36,632 bases of DNA from a virus (taxonomy: Duplodnaviria > Heunggongvirae > Uroviricota > Caudoviricetes), in IMG/VR virus record IMGVR_UViG_2541047758_000014; one strand, written 5' to 3'. The notes below the pieces were generated by a model that worked only from the letters and a program-made list of their open reading frames with translations, was not told the origin of the DNA and did no database searches. Below are positions 9,538-36,632 of this stretch, one piece after another. Made by a program: the position numbers and the translations under genes. Position 1 is the first letter of the stretch; each line of letters starts with the position of its first letter.

Positions 9538-10497
9538 ATGAAAATTTGTATCGACGACGGCTCCACCAACATCAAGCTGGCATGGACTGAGAATGGCGAA
9601 CGCCGCAACGCCATCAGCCCGAACAGCTTCAAGTCGGAATGGTCTGCGCCGTTCGGTGGCATGCAGCCCGCGAACTACATGCTTGATGGCGTGCGCTATG
9701 GTTTTGATCCGGTCAGCGATCGCTTTGTCCAGACGACCGACACGCAATACCAGTACAGCGATGTGAATGTAATCGCCATTCATCACGCGCTGGTCAAATC
9801 AGGCATCACGCCACAAGAGGTGGATGTGGTTGTCACCCTGCCACTGAGCGAGTATTTCGAGACAAACGCACAGCCGGACATGGCCAACATCAACCGCAAA
9901 AAAGCGAACGTTATGCGCTCGGTGGAGTACCAGAACGGCGAAGCATTCACTATCCGTAACGTGCGGGTTATGCCTGAATCCATTCCGGCTGGCTTTAAAG
10001 CACTGGCTGACATGAGTCCGTTTGAATCCCTGCTGATTGTGGATTTAGGCGGAACCACGCTGGATGTGGCAAAGGTTCAAGGGCAACTGGCAGGTATCAG
10101 CCAGGTGTTTTGCGATCCACACGTAGGCGTTTCCCTGATGGCCGATGCCGTACTGTCGGTGATGGCCACTAACGGTATGCGCACCAGTCACCACATCGCC
10201 AATACCATTATCGAACATCGCCATGATGAAGCCTGGCTGCGCCAGCACATCCACAATGACGCGCATTACGCCAGCCTGATGGCGGTTATTCGTGAAAAGG
10301 AAGAAACACTGAAACAACGCGTGATCCGCGCGCTGGCGGTTTTTTCGGGTTACGGGCGGGTGATGGTTGTCGGTGGAGGGGCGGAGATTGTGGCACCCGC
10401 TATCCGCGAAGTCTGCGGAGTTAATGCGACTTTCATCGCGGACGGGGTGCCACAGTTTGCTCTGGTTAATGGGCTGTACGCAATGGACAAGGAGTAA
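9538..10497 (+). CDS. parM: ParM/StbA-like actin-type partition ATPase
   Basis: 319 aa; N-terminus MKICIDDGSTNIKLAW and ISPNSFK...YSDVNVIAIHHAL closely resemble plasmid R1 ParM (MLVFIDDGSTNIKLQW...). Confidence 0.85.
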   Translation: MKICIDDGSTNIKLAWTENGERRNAISPNSFKSEWSAPFGGMQPANYMLDGVRYGFDPVSDRFVQTTDTQYQYSDVNVIAIHHALVKSGITPQEVDVVVTLPLSEYFETNAQPDMANINRKKANVMRSVEYQNGEAFTIRNVRVMPESIPAGFKALADMSPFESLLIVDLGGTTLDVAKVQGQLAGISQVFCDPHVGVSLMADAVLSVMATNGMRTSHHIANTIIEHRHDEAWLRQHIHNDAHYASLMAVIREKEETLKQRVIRALAVFSGYGRVMVVGGGAEIVAPAIREVCGVNATFIADGVPQFALVNGLYAMDKE

Positions 10498-10501
10498 ACC
10501 A

Positions 10502-10813
10502 ATGACGACACCAACCAGACGGATAAGTTTCTATCTGAAGCCTGCGGCCGTCAAGAACGAAAGCGAAGCATGCGCCTGGCTGGACAGCCTTACACCAGAA
10601 GCCCGCAAAAGCGGCCAACGCGTGGCTTTTCTGGCTGGGCTGGCACTTCTGAAAATGAATCCAGCAGAGGCTTACCGACTGGCTGCATGGGCTGACGATG
10701 AGGCGTTATCCGTGACACAAACCAGGACTGAACGCCCCGTGTCACAGCCAGTACCAACCGCACAGATAACCAATCAGATGGCCGGAAATATCAGGGCGTT
10801 ATTCCCCGAATAA
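10502..10813 (+). CDS. parR: ParR-like centromere-binding adaptor
   Basis: 103 aa; start at ATG 10502 inside track ORF 10367..10813; RRISFYLKPAAV...AFLAGLALLKMNP resembles R1 ParR; sits directly downstream of parM as in the R1 par operon. Confidence 0.7.
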   Translation: MTTPTRRISFYLKPAAVKNESEACAWLDSLTPEARKSGQRVAFLAGLALLKMNPAEAYRLAAWADDEALSVTQTRTERPVSQPVPTAQITNQMAGNIRALFPE

Positions 10814-11044: not shown

Positions 11045-11851
11045 CTATTTTTTACGCAAAGGGGGTAATTTATATCGCAAATTAACCTCTTTCGTTTCAA
11101 TATCTCTTGGCCCCTTCTTTTTATCAAAAAACAACCAGATATTGAATTTTCGCTCTGTCGGCCAGGTATCGTGCCGTAATGATTCCCACCCAAGATAAGA
11201 AGCGATTTTCTCTGCCATAGCCAGTTTCGCTGGAGAAGTGGCTTTCCTTTGATATGCACACATGACAGCCCCTAATAAAAAATCGACAAGCTGAATATGT
11301 TCCGATGTTTTTGAGTCTTTTGTTTCAACTAGTTTAATTATGTCCTTGCGCCCATATTTTCGGGCCAGAGAATGGTTGGCAATTATGTGAAACTCTTCAT
11401 CGGCTTTTTTGTAACGAGATGGCAGGGGATCAACTTCTATAAGGAACTCACATTCCGCATGAGGCCACCTTTGGATCACGTTACCTATTTTTGTTTCAAT
11501 AAGCTTGCAAAAATGCTTACGCATTGCAAGATCATAATCCCCACCATGATATGATTTTTCTACTTTAGACTTCTCAACAATAATACAGTGAAAAGCCATC
11601 CAGTTGTGCCTAAAAAACACATCAATGACGTCGCTATAAAAAGCTGCATTACGCTTTGAATGTGCTTTCTGCCATTTGAGCTCATCACTGCATCCATGCT
11701 TTTTTCTCAAATCCTGTACCATGCGAGTGAGTTCAGCGCGCCTCTGATAGCTCATCCAGAGACTCCCAAACCCGTAGAATGGCTGCCCATCAACGCCAGA
11801 TTCATCACAGGCAACATGCCATATCATTTTTTTCTGATTGTTATCTTTCAT
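11045..11851 (-). CDS. DUF3800-like protein, candidate anti-phage or accessory cargo at the A-Q hotspot
   Basis: 268 aa; N-terminal WHVACDESG and C-terminal IQLVDFLLGAV motifs as I recall for DUF3800; gene is clearly more AT-rich than the phage backbone; opposite strand to its neighbours. Confidence 0.6.
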   Translation of the reverse strand: MKDNNQKKMIWHVACDESGVDGQPFYGFGSLWMSYQRRAELTRMVQDLRKKHGCSDELKWQKAHSKRNAAFYSDVIDVFFRHNWMAFHCIIVEKSKVEKSYHGGDYDLAMRKHFCKLIETKIGNVIQRWPHAECEFLIEVDPLPSRYKKADEEFHIIANHSLARKYGRKDIIKLVETKDSKTSEHIQLVDFLLGAVMCAYQRKATSPAKLAMAEKIASYLGWESLRHDTWPTERKFNIWLFFDKKKGPRDIETKEVNLRYKLPPLRKK

Positions 11852-12010
11852 TGGTCTTGGGTTCTGGGGACTAAACGTGCTGCATCTAATTTAATCACAC
11901 ACATAACCTACTGATAAAGATCATTTTTATTCCTGTCTCTCACCAAATGGGTATTGAGAATGACCACCTGAACACACTGAAATAAAGGCGAAAATCATGT
12001 ATCGCCCTGC

Positions 12011-12040
12011 TGCACAATAGTGCACAAATTTGCACAATTT
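12011..12040. repeat. Three tandem 10-bp repeats (TGCACAA-N3), helically phased
   Basis: tgcacaatag / tgcacaaatt / tgcacaattt at 12011..12040; a fourth TGCACAAA at 12103..12110 and GGATCCGT twice at 12081..12088 and 12092..12099. Confidence 0.7.
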
Positions 12041-12420
12041 TTTTGAACGACTTTTTGCCCTTCCGGCCCCCGTGGCGGCTGGATCCGTCAAGGATCCGTG
12101 CGTGCACAAAAAAACGCGTTTTTTCTGCGCGCAGGTGACGGGGGAACAGCCCGCGTTTCAGGGGGTAAATAGCATTCCCTGAGCGATGTCGCAGCGACAC
12201 AACAGAATGGCTGTATTTCTCACGCTGAGCGTGAAAAAGACGTAAGGGTTTTTGATTTGATGGGTTGAAAGGTAAGGCCGTCAAAATCGCACTGAGGCGG
12301 CGAGAACATACAGTCAACGCGGTGGGATTGCGTAAGAGTCTGACCGTCGATGGTGGCGATAAACTGGAAGGCGTCGTGAAATTATCTGATTGATACAGGA
12401 GCTGGAGAGTCGGGGCATAA

Positions 12421-26062: not shown

Positions 26063-26090
26063 GAAGGCCCGATATTGGGCCTTAATTTTT
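26063..26090. terminator. Bidirectional hairpin between convergent G and G'
   Basis: aaggccc-gatatt-gggcctt at 26064..26083 followed by aattttt. Confidence 0.5.
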
Positions 26091-26616
26091 ACTCAGGCTT
26101 TTGTGGCCATTCGGGATTTGCTGTATCCACACGGCTGACCAGAACGCTGTAGCGTTCCCATGACTCCAGTCGTGTGCGTTCCTCATCCGTCGCCATATTC
26201 AGCCTGACAGCGCGTTCCAGTGGCTGAATAACGCTTTCAGCTTCAGAAAGCAACGCGACCTTTTGTGATTCGGCCTGTTGTTGCTGTTCGTCTGCTGTAT
26301 AAATCCGCTTAACCACAGTTCCGTTCTTAAACATCCACTTCCCTGAATCATCGGCACGACGATTGGCTGTTATATCTGGAATCTCAACGACACTAAAGCC
26401 TTCGGGATTAAGCGTTGAGGCATCTTTGGTTATGGCAACAATAATATTATTTTCGTCGTATACAATCTTTATGGTGTCGTCCTGAAAGTTATTTACTTCC
26501 TCATACCAGTTTTTACCGTCTTCGGACCATAACCAGATAACATCAAAATTCTTTGTTAGCTGATATTGTTCTTTTGTTTTTGGATTTCCGGACTTAATAT
26601 TTTTTAAATGCTGCAT
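26089..26616 (-). CDS. Alternative tail fibre assembly protein (G')
   Basis: 175 aa; [24 protein letters not shown]... paralogous to G, opposite strand. Confidence 0.8.
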
Positions 26617-26619
26617 AAT

Positions 26620-27498
26620 TTACACCTGTGCGACGTTATACCATGTGCCATTGATGTATTTTTGTATTGGTCTGAAGATGGCTTCATCATCGCCATCTAC
26701 TTCACCAATGATTCTTAATCCGGTAATTGCGTGTCCGGCTTTTTCATAACGACCACCACGCGCCATCAATTGAACAACACGCGTACCCAGGCGAACATCT
26801 TTTACATAGCGTGAATCAAAATTCCCCCAGTTGCTGGGCTGTATCTGACCGTTAACAGAAAATATTACCGAGTTATCTGTATTTCGCTGGCTATAGAAAT
26901 GCCATCCTGCCTCATCGCCTAACTCTGCAACTACTGGACGGGTTGAAGCACCCCATAAATTAAACGTTGCATTCTTTGTGGAGGTGTTGGAGCTGGATAG
27001 CGAGAACTTTTTACTATCACCTGCCTGAATGTTTTTAAAAGCAATAGCAACTCCATTCTGAAAGCGGAATACTCGCTGACTATTAGCGTAAACATCCAGA
27101 ATGCCATCACCATTCTGTTTGAATCCGGTGTCATTATCACCAAGAACAATAGAGCTACCACCTAACGCATTCGTCGTACCAACTCCAAGACTGCCATTAA
27201 TGACGGCATTTACCAGAATATTTAGTGCATCCCATTTCAGCGTCATCAGGTCTTTTGTTGTGGTGCTCTGGCGGCTTCTCCATTTGAAATATTCATTGCC
27301 GTTGTCGCCTGTTTCAAACCACATGTATGAATCAGTGTCACCATCAGCATCATTTTTAAATCCAATCTTCGCCCAGTCAGTATTTCGAATCCAGGCAAGG
27401 ATTGAGTCATTTTCAAAAGTAAGCCCACCGGACAAGGTATCGCCATTTTTTTGCACGGCGTTACCAGCCCTGTTTACCGTTTCCTGTAAACCGAGGTT
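26620..27498 (-). CDS. Alternative tail fibre C-terminal cassette (promoterless; fused to H constant part after inversion)
   Basis: Track ORF 26620..27456; frame stays open upstream through the gix site to 27498; C-terminus RPIQKYINGTWYNVAQV parallels H. Confidence 0.7.
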   Translation of the reverse strand, partial: NLGLQETVNRAGNAVQKNGDTLSGGLTFENDSILAWIRNTDWAKIGFKNDADGDTDSYMWFETGDNGNEYFKWRSRQSTTTKDLMTLKWDALNILVNAVINGSLGVGTTNALGGSSIVLGDNDTGFKQNGDGILDVYANSQRVFRFQNGVAIAFKNIQAGDSKKFSLSSSNTSTKNATFNLWGASTRPVVAELGDEAGWHFYSQRNTDNSVIFSVNGQIQPSNWGNFDSRYVKDVRLGTRVVQLMARGGRYEKAGHAITGLRIIGEVDGDDEAIFRPIQKYINGTWYNVAQV

Positions 27499-27542: not shown

Positions 27543-28160
27543 TTGGACGGGAGATTCAGTGTGCTGATTGGCTATGTAAGGGTATCAACAAATGACCAGA
27601 ATACAGACCTGCAACGAAACGCTCTTGTTTGTGCAGGATGTGAACAAATATTTGAAGATAAATTAAGCGGGACAAAGACAGACCGACCGGGATTAAAACG
27701 CGCTTTAAAGCGCCTTCAAAAAGGTGACACGCTGGTTGTCTGGAAACTGGATCGCCTCGGGCGAAGCATGAAACATCTGATTTCTCTCGTCGGGGAACTA
27801 CGGGAGCGAGGGATTAATTTTCGCAGTCTGACCGACAGCATAGACACATCTTCTCCAATGGGGCGTTTTTTCTTCCACGTGATGGGTGCCCTGGCTGAAA
27901 TGGAACGTGAATTAATTGTTGAACGTACACTGGCCGGGCTGGCGGCAGCGCGCGCAAGGGGGCGCACAGGCGGACGTCGACCGAAGCTGACAAAAGAACA
28001 GCATGAGCAAATAGCAAGGCTAATCAAAAACGGGCACGACAGAAAACAACTGGCAATAATTTACGGCATTGGCACATCGACGATTTATCGTTATCACCCT
28101 GTAGGCGATATACAGACTGAAGAAACAACCGGGCAGACTCAGGAAAATGAAAACCGCTAA
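27543..28160 (+). CDS. Serine DNA invertase (Gin/Pin/Cin/Hin family)
   Basis: Contains LIGYVRVSTNDQNTDLQRNAL, the conserved N-terminus with the catalytic Ser, and a C-terminal HTH; track start is non-ATG (TTG at 27543), GTG at 27561 is a likely true start. Confidence 0.85.
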   Translation: MDGRFSVLIGYVRVSTNDQNTDLQRNALVCAGCEQIFEDKLSGTKTDRPGLKRALKRLQKGDTLVVWKLDRLGRSMKHLISLVGELRERGINFRSLTDSIDTSSPMGRFFFHVMGALAEMERELIVERTLAGLAAARARGRTGGRRPKLTKEQHEQIARLIKNGHDRKQLAIIYGIGTSTIYRYHPVGDIQTEETTGQTQENENR

Positions 28161-32580: not shown

Positions 32581-33764
32581 CAGGCACCTCCCAGCACCGC
32601 AAATGCGGGTTCAAAGTATTCATCAGTAAACGTCTGGTAAAGCTCCATATCTTCCAGCGGGGGAACAGGCGTATATTTGTAGCGAATACGCACACGCCCC
32701 TGACGTAAATCCGTGGTGCTGTTATCCACCACGTCATACCAGCACTCCGCGCCAATCAGTTTCCCGGCAGTAACCAGTGAATCCAGTTTTGCCCTGATGG
32801 CACTGATAACATCCTTCACGTTCGCAGGCGTCAGTGGACTGTCGATGGTTTCAAACTGCGCTTCCGCAATTGAATCAGCCAACACCTGTGCGGTTCGGGT
32901 ATACACCTCAAAGATGTAGGCGTTCGTTTCCGGTGTGCGGTTGCCCCAGAAGCGGAACCCGTTGCGACGAATAATGGTCGTGATTTCTTTGTTGTTGAGG
33001 CTGTTGGCATCACTGTCTTCGGCCTGCAACGACCAGAACACATGCCTGGACATCCCCAGCACATTTTTAACCGGAACGTTGGACAGCGATTTGTGCCAGC
33101 CCTGTTCATGGTCAATGTACGCACGGAGGCCGCACGCATAGGCAGGCGCGGGGAACGTTTCGTTTTTGCCACTTTTCGGGTTGTAGGCGATGAAGTCCGG
33201 CCATAAGAGCATCACCTCACGTTCGTTGAATTTCTGGCGGTAGGTAATCGCCTCAGCCATCGTGTTACAGCCGTGACATGAGGCATACACAAACGCGCGC
33301 AGTTTACCTGCAATCACGCACAGGGATTTTGTTACAGCCTCCGTGTCCAGCTCCGGCGCGGCCAGAATACGCGGACGGTATCCGATGCTTTCATCCTGCT
33401 CTGCAACAAGCAGCGCATACATCCCCGTATAGCTGCCGTCATCCTCAGAACCACCGATAACCAGTTGATCCTGCGTCTTTCCGTCTTCTTCTTTGTGTTC
33501 AGCCACGCGAACGACGATCACCTTTGTGCTCACCTGGTCTGCAATGGCCTTAAGCGCACGATAAAGCGTCCCCGTTGTCCCGCATTTTCCCAGCACGTCA
33601 TTGACGCGGGTCAGCAGTGTGGGCTTGTTCAGCGGGAACAGCTTCGCGTCCGCATCATCCGCCGTTGCCACGATACCGATAACGCTGGAATCAACATCGT
33701 TAATCGCTGTTACCAGGTCGGTATTTTCCGTAACACGGGCACCATGAAAACGAGTTTCACTCAT
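32580..33764 (-). CDS. FI: Contractile tail sheath protein (P2 gpFI-like)
   Basis: 394 aa; FPLNKP...GTLYRALKAIADQ resembles P2 FI. Confidence 0.9.
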   Translation of the reverse strand: MSETRFHGARVTENTDLVTAINDVDSSVIGIVATADDADAKLFPLNKPTLLTRVNDVLGKCGTTGTLYRALKAIADQVSTKVIVVRVAEHKEEDGKTQDQLVIGGSEDDGSYTGMYALLVAEQDESIGYRPRILAAPELDTEAVTKSLCVIAGKLRAFVYASCHGCNTMAEAITYRQKFNEREVMLLWPDFIAYNPKSGKNETFPAPAYACGLRAYIDHEQGWHKSLSNVPVKNVLGMSRHVFWSLQAEDSDANSLNNKEITTIIRRNGFRFWGNRTPETNAYIFEVYTRTAQVLADSIAEAQFETIDSPLTPANVKDVISAIRAKLDSLVTAGKLIGAECWYDVVDNSTTDLRQGRVRIRYKYTPVPPLEDMELYQTFTDEYFEPAFAVLGGA

Positions 33765-33921
33765 AGCTTCAGCCCCTTGTATCCGTTAAATGATTCGGCA
33801 ACAATCATCACCCACCACGCGCGTAATCTCACCCCTGCGCCGTTCTCCCGACCCGGCGACAACAAAAAGCAGTAACCCCCTCCGCACGCACATGCGACCA
33901 TGCCGCACAGGGAGGAAACAG

Positions 33922-35031
33922 ATGACCGACACCACCATGCAATTGCTCAGTCAGGGCACAGACCCCGTGAAAATGCCGGATTTTGATATTCTTGCGGAGG
34001 GTAAAACGCTGTCAGGCGTGGCAGAGCGCCTGATGAGCCTGTCACTGACCGACAACCGGGGATTTGAGGCGGACCAGCTCACCATCACGCTGGATGATGC
34101 GGATGGTCAGTTGCAGCTACCGCCACGGGGCGCGCGCCTGACGGTTCTCATTGGCTGGAAAGGAGAACCGCTGACAGAAAAAGGCACTTACATTGTTGAT
34201 GAAATCGCTCACGAAGGACCGCCGGACAGGCTGACTGTTTCAGCCAGAAGCGCAGATTTTCGGGATGAATTTAACGTTAAACGTGAGGTGTCCTGGCATG
34301 ATGTGACCCTTGAGCGTGTGGTATCCGCCATCGCTCATCGGTATGGTCTGAAACCACAAATCAGCGAAATGCTGATGGATATCGAAATCGACCACGCCGA
34401 CCAGACCGAAGAAAGCGACATGTCCTTCCTTACGCGCATGGCGGAAATGCTGGGCGCAATCACCACGGTAAAAAGCGGTAATCTGTTATTCATCATGCCA
34501 GGCGGTGGCGTGAACGCACAGGGCCAGCCGTTGCCCTCGTTCGCCATCACGCGCAGCAGTGGCGATCGCCATCAGTTCCGCATTGCTGACCGCGAAGCGT
34601 ATACGGGGGTACGCGCTTACTGGCTTGATCTTAATTACGGGAAAAAGAAAAAAGTCAGCGTGAAACGCCGCAAACCGCCAAAACCCAAAAAGGAGAAAAG
34701 CAGCAGCCGTGAAGGTGATTATATGGAAGGCGCAGAAGGCAATGTGTTTGTGTTACGCAAGACTTATCAGAACGAGCAGGCAGCAAGACGCGCAGCGGCG
34801 GCAAAGTGGCAGCAGCTACAACGCGGAGCCGCAGCGTTCTCCATCACACTGGCACGTGGACGCGCAGAACTCTACCCCGAAATGCATGGCACGGTAACAG
34901 GATTTAAAAGCGAAATTGATAATCAGGACTGGATTATTGCAAAAGCCGAGCACACCATTGATAACAGTGGCTTTACCACGCAGCTTGAGCTTGAAGCCAA
35001 AATCCCGGAATGGATAGCAGAAACAGAGTAA
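33922..35031 (+). CDS. D: Tail protein D (late control gene D family)
   Basis: Start at ATG 33922 with RBS gggagga inside track ORF 33790..35031; 369 aa. Confidence 0.85.
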   Translation: MTDTTMQLLSQGTDPVKMPDFDILAEGKTLSGVAERLMSLSLTDNRGFEADQLTITLDDADGQLQLPPRGARLTVLIGWKGEPLTEKGTYIVDEIAHEGPPDRLTVSARSADFRDEFNVKREVSWHDVTLERVVSAIAHRYGLKPQISEMLMDIEIDHADQTEESDMSFLTRMAEMLGAITTVKSGNLLFIMPGGGVNAQGQPLPSFAITRSSGDRHQFRIADREAYTGVRAYWLDLNYGKKKKVSVKRRKPPKPKKEKSSSREGDYMEGAEGNVFVLRKTYQNEQAARRAAAAKWQQLQRGAAAFSITLARGRAELYPEMHGTVTGFKSEIDNQDWIIAKAEHTIDNSGFTTQLELEAKIPEWIAETE

Positions 35032-35225
35032 ACAACTTAGATGCATTAGCCCTGACATTTGCTAACGCGCTTACAGCAAGAATCATAACCAATCTGACAG
35101 CCTACCCGGTGTCAAAATCAGAAGAGCCTTACATTAGAATATGTTAATTTGTAGCAAACAAATTTACACACAAATGATTACTGCTGAAATAGCCCCCATA
35201 AATACCATGTCAAAGGATCCATGTT

Positions 35226-35891
35226 ATGAATATGCAAATTTTTATCGCACCAGCAGCCACAGTTGCTGCAGTCTGCCTTGCTGCATATTTTGCTTTACGA
35301 AATGAACGTAAAAAGAAAGCACTTGAGATTAGAACAACTCAACTAGATCGAATATCAGAGCTAGTAAACCGAGCATCTACCAATTTGATGCAATATACAG
35401 GTACTCTTGCCTCTATACTGGAAGCGCACGCCAAAGATAATTATCTACCGAACAAAAAATTTGACATTAATGTAATTAGCAAATGGAAAGATTGCCTCGA
35501 TGAGAGTGAGGTCTGGGCGATTGATAGACAGCAACTAAGAACATGTCAGCACAGTCTGGAGTTTCATCGTGAAAAAGAATGGGCTGAATGGAAAAAAATA
35601 ATTCCACCATTACTTGATAAAATTGACCAATTTTTTCTCATATCTAAGCCAGGGCAACCTGTTACGTTTATAAATGGCCAAAACAAAACAGCTGATGAAC
35701 TACTTGTTTTCTCAAGATATTTGAGAAAACAAACAGCAGAAATTGAATCAGTACGTCAGCTGTTACTTTCTCAAATGAGAGAGGAATTCATCGAGTTAAC
35801 TAGCTTTGAACCTGTCACAATGTTTAGCTTATTTAAATCAATAAAGAAAAATGTCATGCAATTTTTCTGTATCAGTGCTCTTAAAAATTGA
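35226..35891 (+). CDS. AT-rich moron: N-terminally membrane-anchored protein of unknown function
   Basis: 221 aa; N-terminal TM IFIAPAATVAAVCLAAYFAL; markedly AT-rich; own RBS (aagga) and downstream terminator; inserted between D and ogr. Confidence 0.6.
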   Translation: MNMQIFIAPAATVAAVCLAAYFALRNERKKKALEIRTTQLDRISELVNRASTNLMQYTGTLASILEAHAKDNYLPNKKFDINVISKWKDCLDESEVWAIDRQQLRTCQHSLEFHREKEWAEWKKIIPPLLDKIDQFFLISKPGQPVTFINGQNKTADELLVFSRYLRKQTAEIESVRQLLLSQMREEFIELTSFEPVTMFSLFKSIKKNVMQFFCISALKN

Positions 35892-35906
35892 CGCTCTGTT
35901 GCAAGC

Positions 35907-35938
35907 AACCCCAGTGTTAAACTGGGGTTATTCTTGCT
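35907..35938 (+). terminator. Rho-independent terminator after the moron gene
   Basis: aaccccagt-gttaa-actggggtt followed by attcttgct. Confidence 0.6.
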
Positions 35939-36040
35939 AAGAGACCTTTCTACGGCATCAGTAAACAAAACGAACTATCAGTTGGAGTCTGAGCAAGTTC
36001 AGCCTAAACTAGCGACAGCACTACGTTAAGGGAGGTCGCT

Positions 36041-36301
36041 ATGTTCCGTTGTCCGCTTTGTGGCGCATCTGCCCGTATCCGCACCAGTCGTCCGGAAAAT
36101 GATTCAAACACCGTGCGGCAAAAGTATTACCAGTGTAACAACCTGGAATGCGGCGTATGCTTCTCAACACTGGAAGCTTTCCATAAATTCACATCGAAAC
36201 ACGCCTCCGGCATCCACTCTTCAGAAGATATCCCGTGGCATGAGCTGCCAGCTTCACACAGGGGAAACAATCAGATGAGCTTGCCTTTACCTCAGAATTA
36301 A
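36041..36301 (+). CDS. ogr: Ogr-family zinc-finger late transcription activator
   Basis: MFRCPLCGASARIRTSR...YYQCNNLECGVCF matches the P2 Ogr C-x2-C...C-x4-C pattern; RBS aagggagg. Confidence 0.85.
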   Translation: MFRCPLCGASARIRTSRPENDSNTVRQKYYQCNNLECGVCFSTLEAFHKFTSKHASGIHSSEDIPWHELPASHRGNNQMSLPLPQN

Positions 36302-36361: not shown

Positions 36362-36574
36362 ATGGTCGGAGGGAATACCCGAAGGCCAGATGTGGAAAGG
36401 CCCCGGAAAACATCTCTGTTTAACCGAGGCCCTAACCGCATTACCTTGACAAGTGAAAGGTTAGCGCCTCTCCGGAAAAGGAGCAAGTGCTATGTCGCAA
36501 AAATCGCTTACGGCCATCACGTTCTGCGTGACGGCAATCCTCATCATCTGGATGTTGCACGGTTCGCTGTGTGA
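36362..36574 (+). CDS. mok-like overlapping reading frame of the hok locus
   Basis: 70 aa ORF overlapping the hok frame, as in hok/mok/sok loci; no sequence signature of its own. Confidence 0.35.
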   Translation: MVGGNTRRPDVERPRKTSLFNRGPNRITLTSERLAPLRKRSKCYVAKIAYGHHVLRDGNPHHLDVARFAV

Positions 36575-36632
36575 AATACGGATGAGCTTCTGGGGAGCGG
36601 AGTTTGCGGCGTTCTTACAGTGTAAGCAGTAA
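36492..36632 (+). CDS. hok: Hok/Gef-family type I toxin
   Basis: 46 aa MSQKSLTAITFCVTAILIIWMLHGSLCEIRMSFWGAEFAAFLQCKQ; SLCEIR and AAFL motifs match Hok/HokA; below ORF-track size cutoff; stop is the last codon of the window. Confidence 0.75.
   Translation: MSQKSLTAITFCVTAILIIWMLHGSLCEIRMSFWGAEFAAFLQCKQ

What the first reader, a model, noticed from the sequence alone, without database searches (positions are those of the whole stretch)
35032..35940. AT-rich membrane-protein moron inserted between D and ogr
In P2-type phages ogr normally follows D directly. Here about 1 kb of strongly AT-rich DNA sits between them, holding a self-contained unit: a 221-aa protein with one N-terminal TM helix and a soluble helical domain, its own RBS, and a strong terminator at 35907..35938. 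Composition and placement indicate recent horizontal acquisition; likely roles are superinfection exclusion, abortive infection or a host-interaction factor.
Basis: partly seen in the sequence, partly recalled or inferred. Interest (0 to 1): 0.7.

Follow-up and report, generated by a model that had tools for sequence, protein, structure and literature searches.

The report
Uncharacterised membrane-protein cassette in P2-like prophage
A horizontally acquired one-gene cassette encoding an unstudied membrane-anchored protein sits in a swap-in/swap-out slot between the tail gene D and the regulator ogr of an E. coli P2-like prophage; its relatives ride on phages, plasmids and defence islands, which makes it a candidate (untested) phage-exclusion gene.

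Summary
A 968-bp low-GC segment (0.376 against 0.523 for the window) separates gpD from ogr and is absent from phage P88. It carries one 221-aa ORF (35226..35891) with an AAGGA ribosome-binding site and a strong downstream hairpin. The gene is under purifying selection (dN/dS 0.24 against a Kluyvera copy). The junction is a fixed cassette-exchange site. About two thirds of sampled related E. coli prophages are empty there. The rest carry one of at least six unrelated low-GC single genes with the same boundaries. This cargo occurs in 58 of 5426 complete E. coli genomes. The protein belongs to a small Enterobacterales family (23 representatives among 1.84 billion proteins) with no Pfam, PHROG, PADLOC, NCBIfam or PDB match. 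It is predicted to have an N-out/C-in membrane anchor running into a cytoplasmic helical bundle (pLDDT 81). Family members are always solitary. They sit in accessory slots of P2-like and lambdoid prophages, plasmids and conjugative elements, and in islands beside CBASS-like, TIR, KAP-NTPase and DUF4238 genes. The moron reading is supported. A role in phage or mobile-element exclusion is the best inference (about 0.45) and is untested. An own promoter was not shown.

The parts
33922..35031 (+). gpD (tail/baseplate hub, 'late control D'), the left conserved flank
   Evidence: PF05954 and phrog_52. The PHROG match starts at residue 43-45 of the 413-aa ORF 33790..35031, so the likely start is M45 = 33922. 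P88 annotates a 366-aa D.
35042..36009 (.). 968-bp segment absent from the empty D-ogr junction of phage P88
   Evidence: blastn and alignment of the window against L004; GC 0.376.
35051..35964 (.). Variable cassette proper, the part replaced by other cargo in related prophages
   Evidence: All six cargo types share a left boundary at about 35048-35050 (the YecA cassette shares up to 35102) and a right boundary at about 35965-35978.
35083..35225 (+). 143-nt upstream region that travels with the gene between phage types. It contains the invariant block GAATATGTTAATTTGT and the perfect inverted repeat AATTTGT(35146-52)-N5-ACAAATT(35158-64). The best promoter-like match is TCAAAA(35112)-17-TAGAAT(35135).
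   Evidence: Homology to the Kluyvera lambdoid copy begins at 35083; alignment; promoter scoring 8/12, not conserved in Kluyvera; sequence read directly.
35213..35217 (+). Shine-Dalgarno-like AAGGA, 8 nt before the ATG
   Evidence: Sequence read directly; conserved as (A/G)AGGA in L015 and L020.
35226..35891 (+). 221-aa ORF: predicted N-terminal membrane anchor (about residues 4-24), conserved juxtamembrane LRNExxKKxLE motif (24-34), helical bundle (to about residue 192), C-terminal amphipathic helix (199-219)
   Evidence: dN/dS 0.24 against Kluyvera. Invariant A20, L24, K30, K31, H114, W122, F136 in 35 sequences.
35894..35943 (+). Strong hairpin (core stem 35907-35929) followed by ATTCTTGC; a probable intrinsic terminator for the D-cargo transcript
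   Evidence: -26.7 kcal/mol, z -6.0. Present in the E. coli copies, not in the Kluyvera copy.
35965..36009 (+). Right conserved flank shared by all cargo-bearing prophages but missing in P88. It holds a weak promoter-like element for ogr: TTGGAG(35982)-17-TAAACT(36005).
   Evidence: Promoter score is 7/12 here and 9/12 (TTGGAA-17-TAGAAT) in phage 500465-2. Promoter function is inferred.
36041..36301 (+). ogr (Ogr/Delta zinc-finger late activator), the right conserved flank
   Evidence: PF04606 and phrog_603.

Best explanation
Shown: the segment is a one-gene accessory cassette (a moron). It occupies a fixed cassette-exchange slot between gpD and ogr of a P88-like (Xuanwuvirus, Peduoviridae) prophage integrated next to ihfA/pheT in E. 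coli. It is foreign in composition, present in only about 5% of related prophages, and shares a mobile module with a copy in an unrelated lambdoid prophage.

Predicted: the product is a single-pass inner-membrane protein. A very short N-terminus faces out. The hydrophobic helix continues without a break into a cytoplasmic helical bundle. The most conserved part is the juxtamembrane LRNExxKKxLE motif, together with an invariant His114, Trp122 and Phe136.

Inferred: it acts alone as an exclusion or defence factor that mobile elements carry to compete with other elements. It would work at the cytoplasmic face of the inner membrane. It could block productive DNA entry or early development of a superinfecting phage (superinfection exclusion). 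Alternatively it could sense an infection cue through the bundle and compromise the membrane (abortive infection). The evidence here cannot choose between these two.

Transcription in this prophage most likely comes from read-through of D, since no terminator lies between them, and possibly also from a weak own promoter. The hairpin ends that transcript. ogr would then be served by the promoter-like element in the conserved right flank.
For: Cassette and slot: P88 lacks 35042-36009. Of 38 sampled prophages that hold both flanks, 25 are empty. The other 13 carry this gene, a 340-aa weak-HEPN gene, a DUF3800 gene, a YecA-family gene or one of two PIN-domain genes. All share the same boundaries and have GC 0.33-0.42.

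Real gene: dN/dS 0.24, dS 0.67.

Family: only 23 representatives among 1.84e9 proteins, all about 215-235 aa. It is confined to Enterobacterales.

Context of 13 diverse members (all solitary, no conserved neighbour):
- lambdoid phages between Q and the holin
- lambdoid early regions
- plasmids beside Rep3/ParA
- tra regions and ICE-like elements
- islands with SMODS+S_4TM, nSTAND, TIR, KAP NTPase and RES
- a smpB island with an integrase and a KAP NTPase
- between DUF4238 and DUF4145 genes. DUF4238 is a validated anti-T7 defence (PMC9122126).

Same prophage: its classical A-Q defence hotspot carries a DUF3800 protein matching PADLOC PDC-M04A. Another DUF3800 protein is an alternative D-ogr cargo.
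Against: There is no functional data of any kind. No similarity to any known defence, exclusion or Abi family was found: PADLOC gave 0 of 23 members, and PHROGs, Pfam and NCBIfam gave nothing. None of the other D-ogr cargoes hits PADLOC convincingly, so the slot is not yet a demonstrated defence hotspot.

Guilt by association is weak for single genes on mobile elements, where virulence, stress and maintenance genes also accumulate. The cytoplasmic location of the bulk of the protein argues against a classical periplasm-side block of injection. The membrane helix is only moderately hydrophobic in several family members (1.3-1.5). IS elements interrupt the gene in at least 6 of 58 carrier genomes and it is frameshifted in phage 520873, so it is dispensable.
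Confidence: 0.45

Rival explanations
1. Lysogenic-conversion factor unrelated to phage defence. The membrane-anchored protein would change host envelope physiology, stress tolerance or host-animal interaction, and is kept because it benefits the lysogen.
For: Carriers include pathogens: EPEC O127:H6 E2348/69, O55:H7 CB9615, O111 and ETEC. One family member lies next to an autotransporter and HipA. Morons often encode membrane proteins with such roles (review text in PMC7067206). No defence-family match was found.
Against: Carriers also come from fish, frog, chicken, pig and wastewater, so there is no pathotype link. Several family members sit inside clusters of recognised defence genes. The family also occurs on plant-associated Pantoea and Erwinia plasmids.
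Confidence: 0.2
2. A function for the carrying element itself. Examples are tuning of late gene expression or lysis timing in phages, or maintenance/addiction of the element.
For: In this prophage the gene is co-oriented with D, downstream of it and with no intervening terminator. In L016 and L017 it lies between the Q antiterminator and the holin, that is, inside the late transcript. On plasmids it sits directly beside rep/par genes. A Hok/Gef addiction-type gene follows ogr.
Against: It is absent from about 95% of closely related prophages, which therefore complete their cycle without it. It occurs in non-phage, non-plasmid chromosomal islands. It has no partner gene that could act as an antitoxin. 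It has no PHROG lysis-family match, and separate holin and Rz-like spanin genes are present in L016/L017.
Confidence: 0.15
3. An accessory component of a CBASS-type system (SMODS cyclase plus S_4TM effector) that has become detached in most contexts.
For: Two different family members in two genera lie 520-575 bp upstream of a SMODS + S_4TM pair, on the same strand, within otherwise different islands.
Against: Eleven other sampled contexts, this window included, have no SMODS or S_4TM gene nearby. The large intergenic gap argues against co-translation. The subclade holding these two members also includes tra-region, prophage and plasmid copies.
Confidence: 0.05
4. Hitch-hiking or decaying DNA, meaning the ORF has no selected function.
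For: There are IS insertions and truncated or frameshifted alleles in some genomes. The gene is rare and dispensable.
Against: dN/dS is 0.24 at dS 0.67. Length and architecture are conserved down to about 20% identity, with seven invariant residues in 35 sequences. The fold prediction is confident.
Confidence: 0.05

Closest known systems
Phage morons in the sense of Juhala et al. 2000 and Cumby, Davidson & Maxwell 2012 (for example HK97 gp15, lambda bor/lom). These citations appear in the reference list of PMC7067206; details of gp15 are from my own knowledge.
   Same: An extra gene inserted between two genes that are adjacent in related phages, with foreign low-GC composition and a downstream hairpin. 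It encodes a small inner-membrane protein and is dispensable for the phage.
   Different: An own promoter was not demonstrated. There is no sequence similarity to any characterised moron product. The same gene family also rides on plasmids, ICEs and chromosomal islands.
P2-like prophage accessory/defence hotspots: gpA-gpQ (old, tin) and Z/fun (Rousset et al. 2022, PMC9122126; PMC13586616; bioRxiv 10.1101/2024.10.15.618418)
   Same: A small locus (here 1-2 kb; those authors describe roughly 1-5 kb) between two conserved genes, with high turnover of unrelated low-GC cargo in either orientation. Cargo domains (PIN, HEPN-like, DUF3800) are of the kind seen in defence hotspots.
   Different: The location differs. 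The D-ogr junction of P88-like phages is not among the hotspots named in those papers, and 'ogr' occurs 0 times in each text. [quoted passage not shown] No cargo at this junction has been validated or matches PADLOC.
Single-pass membrane superinfection-exclusion proteins (lactococcal Sie2009, P22 SieA, T4 Imm). Architectures are recalled from my own knowledge.
   Same: A small prophage-encoded protein with an N-terminal membrane anchor that acts alone.
   Different: There is no sequence match: PHROGs and Pfam contain these families and gave nothing at E <= 0.1. The bulk of this protein is predicted to be cytoplasmic, not external.
Four-helix-bundle sensor domains of chemoreceptors and histidine kinases (Tar/Tsr, NarX/NarQ, QseE)

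Membership tests
Phage moron (Juhala/Hendrix definition) | Inserted between two genes that are adjacent in related phages | tested here: met
   D and ogr are about 40 nt apart in P88. The window has 968 extra bp. 25 of 38 sampled relatives are empty at this junction.
Phage moron (Juhala/Hendrix definition) | Nucleotide composition distinct from the surrounding phage genome | tested here: met
   GC 0.376 (CDS 0.360, GC3 0.28) against 0.541 for D and 0.523 for the window.
Phage moron (Juhala/Hendrix definition) | Own transcription terminator downstream | tested here: met
   Hairpin at -26.7 kcal/mol, z -6.0, followed by ATTCTT. Caveats: the U-tract is interrupted and the hairpin is not conserved in the Kluyvera copy.
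Phage moron (Juhala/Hendrix definition) | Own promoter, allowing expression from the repressed prophage | tested here: inconclusive
   143 nt of upstream DNA travels with the gene. The best sigma-70 match is only 8/12 and is not conserved. There is no TGT-N12-ACA site. Transcript mapping is needed.
P2-like prophage defence hotspot (Rousset et al. 2022) | Small locus between two conserved genes with high turnover of unrelated cargo | tested here: met
   At least six unrelated single-gene cargoes, plus the empty state, with shared boundaries.
P2-like prophage defence hotspot (Rousset et al. 2022) | Cargo includes recognised anti-phage systems | tested here: inconclusive
   No cargo at this junction hits PADLOC. 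Only suggestive domains were found: a sub-threshold HEPN_RiboL-PSP match (E 1.2e-4), RefSeq 'PIN domain' names, and DUF3800, whose relative in the A-Q hotspot of this same window matches PDC-M04A.
P2-like prophage defence hotspot (Rousset et al. 2022) | Cargo confers phage resistance when expressed | not testable with these tools
   Requires plating and infection assays.
Known superinfection-exclusion / abortive-infection protein families (SieA, SieB, Imm, Sp, RexB, gp15-like, Abi families, PADLOC systems) | Sequence homology to a family model | tested here: not met
   Pfam: nothing below E 0.03. PHROGs: nothing below E 0.2. PADLOC: one spurious match at E 0.023 for the query and 0 of 23 members at E <= 0.01. 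NCBIfam: nothing.
4HB sensor domains (4HB_MCP / NarX-type) | Sequence-profile membership and a periplasmic location between two TM helices | tested here: not met
i-spanin (Rz / P2 LysB type) | N-in/C-out anchor with a periplasmic coiled-coil domain, paired with an o-spanin gene in the lysis cassette | tested here: not met
   No PHROG spanin match. Separate Rz-like spanins are present in L016 and L017. The charge distribution predicts C-in. The family also occurs on plasmids and islands.

The most novel reading that the evidence does not exclude
The 221-aa protein would be the founding member of a new stand-alone, membrane-anchored anti-phage or anti-mobile-element system that is shared among phages, plasmids, ICEs and defence islands of Enterobacterales. 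The D-ogr junction of P88-like prophages would be a previously unlisted defence hotspot holding at least six uncharacterised single-gene systems: this one, a HEPN-like gene, two PIN-domain genes, a DUF3800 gene and a YecA-family gene.
Probability: 0.35. Interest if true: 0.65.

Novelty: new member of a known kind. Interest (0 to 1): 0.45.

Why it matters
Prophage hotspots have been one of the most productive places to find new anti-phage systems. This junction is a compact, easily cloned slot with fixed boundaries, and it has at least six unannotated single-gene cargoes. The cargo studied here belongs to a family with no annotation in any library tested, yet it is present in reference strains that are easy to work with (EPEC E2348/69, O55:H7 CB9615). 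If it excludes phages or plasmids, it would add a new single-protein membrane-based mechanism and a new hotspot to mine. If it does not, it is one more moron of unknown role.

Tried and rejected
Contexts were obtained through `search for homologous proteins` and `look-up of encoding contigs` instead.
2. The afdb50 fold library was unavailable. Foldseek against PDB and BFVD gave no hit at E <= 1e-3. PDB sequence-profile searches gave nothing.
3. The idea that conservation in the membrane helix lies on one helical face was tested and dropped. The 100-degree periodicity test gave permutation p = 0.17.
4. An Ogr-type activator site (TGT-N12-ACA) upstream of the ORF was not found on the + strand of 33700-36100.
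5. The window part of the promoter scan was invalid, because an alignment record named 'window' overwrote the real sequence. It was repeated correctly.
6. A colicin-immunity role, suggested by a pore-forming colicin-domain gene beside the Kluyvera copy, was rejected. No other context has a colicin gene, and pore-former immunity proteins are polytopic (own knowledge).
7. An i-spanin or lysis role was rejected (see the membership test).
8. An obligate CBASS partnership was rejected, since it appears in only 2 of 13 contexts.
9. Literature searches for WP_001057122 and WP_001057121 and for P88/Xuanwuvirus hotspot work found nothing on this gene.

Full report
**1. The observation**

The window is a complete P2-like prophage. 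Its right end reads sheath/tube (minus strand), then gpD, the finding, ogr and a Hok/Gef gene on the plus strand. In matching E. coli genomes these are followed by ihfA and pheT.

gpD (PF05954, phrog_52) ends at 35031. Ogr (PF04606) starts at 36041. Between them lies one substantial ORF, 35226..35891 (221 aa). AAGGA sits 8 nt before its ATG.

GC falls to 0.33-0.40 across 35000-35950, against 0.50-0.59 on either side. The insert is 0.376, the CDS 0.360 (GC3 0.28), D 0.541 and the window 0.523.

A hairpin with a 9-bp core stem (35907-35929) followed by ATTCTT was found by the terminator scan. Its extended form folds at -26.7 kcal/mol (z = -6.0).

**2. It is an insertion into a fixed, polymorphic slot**

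Phage P88 (Xuanwuvirus, Peduoviridae) aligns with the window up to 35041 and again from 36010. Only one base lies between these two blocks in P88, so 968 bp are extra here.

1063 complete E. coli genomes hold both flanks of the 5.6-kb query. The cargo itself is in 58 of 5426 genomes, always chromosomal. Carriers include O55:H7 CB9615 and EPEC O127:H6 E2348/69.

In an evenly spaced sample of the ranking, 38 rows held both flanks:

| State of the D-ogr junction | Rows |
|---|---|
| Empty | 25 |
| This 221-aa gene | 3 |
| 340-aa gene, opposite strand, sub-threshold HEPN_RiboL-PSP match | 3 |
| 389-aa DUF3800 protein | 2 |
| 379-aa YecA-family protein | 2 |
| PIN-domain proteins (356 and 500 aa) | 3 |

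All these cargoes share the same boundaries. The left edge is 17-19 nt past the D stop (the YecA cassette shares homology up to 35102). The right edge is 63-76 nt before the ogr ATG. All are 1.2-1.9 kb with GC 0.33-0.42.

The conserved right flank (35965-36009) is missing in P88. It contains a promoter-like TTGG(A/G)(A/G)-17-TA(G/A)A(A/C)T element, scoring 9/12 in phage 500465-2 and 7/12 here. I infer that it serves ogr once a cassette with a terminator separates ogr from D.

**3. The gene is real and mobile**

A Kluyvera georgiana copy (73% protein identity) lies in a lambdoid prophage, between the replication genes and the RusA/DUF968/Q region. DNA homology to the window runs only from 35083 to 35897. 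That covers 143 nt upstream plus the CDS and excludes the hairpin.

dN/dS between the two copies is 0.24 at dS 0.67, which shows purifying selection.

The gene is nevertheless dispensable. IS1 or IS3 elements interrupt it in at least six carrier genomes, IS100 lies within the D-to-hok stretch in a seventh, and the gene is frameshifted in phage 520873.

**4. The protein**

No model in Pfam, PHROGs, PADLOC or NCBIfam matches. None of 23 family members hits PADLOC. PDB sequence-profile searches are empty.

An exhaustive HMMER search of 1.84 billion representatives finds 23 with E <= 0.001, nearly all 215-235 aa. A profile search of the 5.8-billion set finds 30 clusters. All are named 'hypothetical', none has a Pfam domain, and they come from Escherichia, Kluyvera, Klebsiella, Citrobacter, Salmonella and Pseudescherichia. 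Plasmid copies in Pantoea, Erwinia and Winslowiella extend the range.

The only strongly hydrophobic segment is N-terminal, with a Kyte-Doolittle mean of 2.11. In most members the residues before it carry no Lys or Arg, while 4-6 Lys/Arg lie in the 15 residues after it. By the positive-inside rule (established knowledge) this predicts N-out/C-in, with the bulk of the protein in the cytoplasm.

AlphaFold2 with 23 sequences gives pLDDT 81.3 and pTM 0.67, with the five models at 75.6-81.3. The anchor helix continues as the first helix of a helical bundle (H3-71, 81-93, 101-114, 116-137, 156-192), followed by a less confident C-terminal helix.

Invariant residues in 35 sequences are A20, L24, K30, K31, H114, W122 and F136. 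The juxtamembrane LRNExxKKxLE motif is the best-conserved stretch.

**5. Where the family lives**

Thirteen diverse members were placed in context. Each is solitary, with no recurrent neighbour.

| Context | Members or loci |
|---|---|
| P2-like D-ogr slot | this window |
| Lambdoid phages, between the Q antiterminator and holin/endolysin/Rz (the classical lambdoid moron position) | L016, L017 |
| Lambdoid early regions | P0004, P0045 |
| Plasmids, beside Rep3 and ParA | P0028, P0033, P0019 |
| ICE-like element next to HipA | P0037 |
| Among tra genes | P0043 |
| Islands with SMODS+S_4TM, nSTAND, TIR, KAP NTPase, RES | P0022, P0032 |
| smpB island with integrase and KAP NTPase | P0035 |
| Between DUF4238 and DUF4145 genes | P0044 |

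A single DUF4238 protein was validated as an anti-T7 defence by Rousset et al. (PMC9122126). The classical A-Q hotspot of this same prophage holds a DUF3800 protein matching the PADLOC candidate PDC-M04A. Another DUF3800 protein is an alternative D-ogr cargo.

**6. Mechanism**

Shown: a mobile one-gene cassette in a cassette-exchange slot, and a selected, predicted membrane-anchored helical protein.

Inferred: it is a stand-alone factor used in competition between mobile elements, either superinfection exclusion or abortive infection, acting at the cytoplasmic face of the inner membrane. I put this at about 0.45. It rests on distribution and neighbourhood only, and the protein matches no known defence family.

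Rival explanations:
- a lysogenic-conversion factor unrelated to phages (0.2)
- a function for the carrying element itself (0.15)
- a detached CBASS accessory gene (0.05)
- no selected function (0.05)

Expression is unresolved. No terminator lies between D and the ORF, so late read-through is likely. The upstream 143 nt travel with the gene and contain an invariant block and a 7-bp inverted repeat. The best sigma-70 match is only 8/12 and is not conserved. In a Salmonella P2-like prophage, ogr is transcribed during lysogeny (PMC7067206), so this end of such prophages is not silent.

**7. Comparison with what is known, and novelty**

As a kind of thing this is known: a moron or hotspot cargo of a temperate phage. 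The D-ogr junction is not among the P2 hotspots named in the three hotspot papers read. Those hotspots are A-Q/cos, Z/fun downstream of gpL, int-att and int-primase. 'ogr' does not occur in any of the three texts. [quoted passage not shown]

The protein family is unannotated everywhere I could look. I therefore file it as a new member of a known kind. Interest is moderate (0.45). It is a concrete, cheap-to-test lead for defence discovery, not a surprise in itself.

Noticed in passing
window 35042-36009; loci L002, L035, L036, L037, L038: The D-ogr junction of P88-like prophages is a fixed cassette-exchange site. It holds at least six unrelated low-GC single-gene cargoes: this gene, a 340-aa weak-HEPN gene, a DUF3800 gene, a YecA-family gene and two PIN-domain genes. 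None of them matches PADLOC.
   Followed up: yes
window 11045-11851 (-): A 268-aa DUF3800 protein sits in the classical gpA-gpQ hotspot (GC 0.41-0.43). It matches the PADLOC candidate defence family PDC-M04A at E 2.6e-35. The adjacent 125-aa ORF 11940-12317 has no match.
   Followed up: partly
window 9538-10813 (+): A plasmid-type partition pair lies inside an integrated P2-like prophage, just after the replication gene: ParM/StbA (PF06406 + PF21523, 319 aa) and a Plasmid_stab_B protein. This hints that these phages may also be maintained episomally.
   Followed up: partly
window 36492-36632 (+): A Hok/Gef-family toxin gene (annotated 'MokW-like host killing' in related phages) follows ogr at the extreme right end of the prophage, next to ihfA. 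The same hok region is about 83% identical in many Stx2a-converting phages.
   Followed up: no
window 27543-28160 (+) and 26089-27456 (-): A serine recombinase/invertase (Resolvase + HTH_7) lies beside oppositely oriented ORFs in a low-GC tail-fibre region. This suggests an invertible host-range switch.
   Followed up: no
L024 5001-8199; L029 5001-8233: Two different family members, in Pseudescherichia and Klebsiella michiganensis, lie 520-575 bp upstream of a SMODS + S_4TM (CBASS-like) pair, on the same strand, within otherwise different islands.
   Followed up: partly
E. coli genome hits H19-H24, H63, H133-134, H158-160; L003: IS1A or IS3 interrupts the cargo gene in at least six carrier genomes. 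IS100 lies within the D-to-hok stretch in a seventh genome (H63), and I did not check whether it falls inside the gene. The gene is frameshifted in phage 520873. This may reflect counter-selection or simply IS preference for AT-rich DNA.
   Followed up: partly
L020 3077-4652: The Kluyvera lambdoid prophage that carries the 73%-identical homolog also encodes a 408-aa protein with a pore-forming colicin domain (PF01024). A 100-aa gene lies on the opposite strand right after it, the usual layout for a colicin and its immunity gene.
   Followed up: no
window 33790-35031; L001 2779-3632: RefSeq annotates gpD of this prophage as a shortened 266-aa 'VgrG/Pvc8 family' protein plus a 31-codon pseudogene fragment on the other strand. 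The reading frame is in fact open from 33922 to 35031 (369 aa), as in P88.
   Followed up: no
window 35146-35164: A perfect 7-bp inverted repeat, AATTTGT-N5-ACAAATT, lies in the conserved region upstream of the ORF, right after an invariant GAATATGTT block. It could be an operator or an RNA element. It is only partly conserved in the Kluyvera copy.
   Followed up: partly
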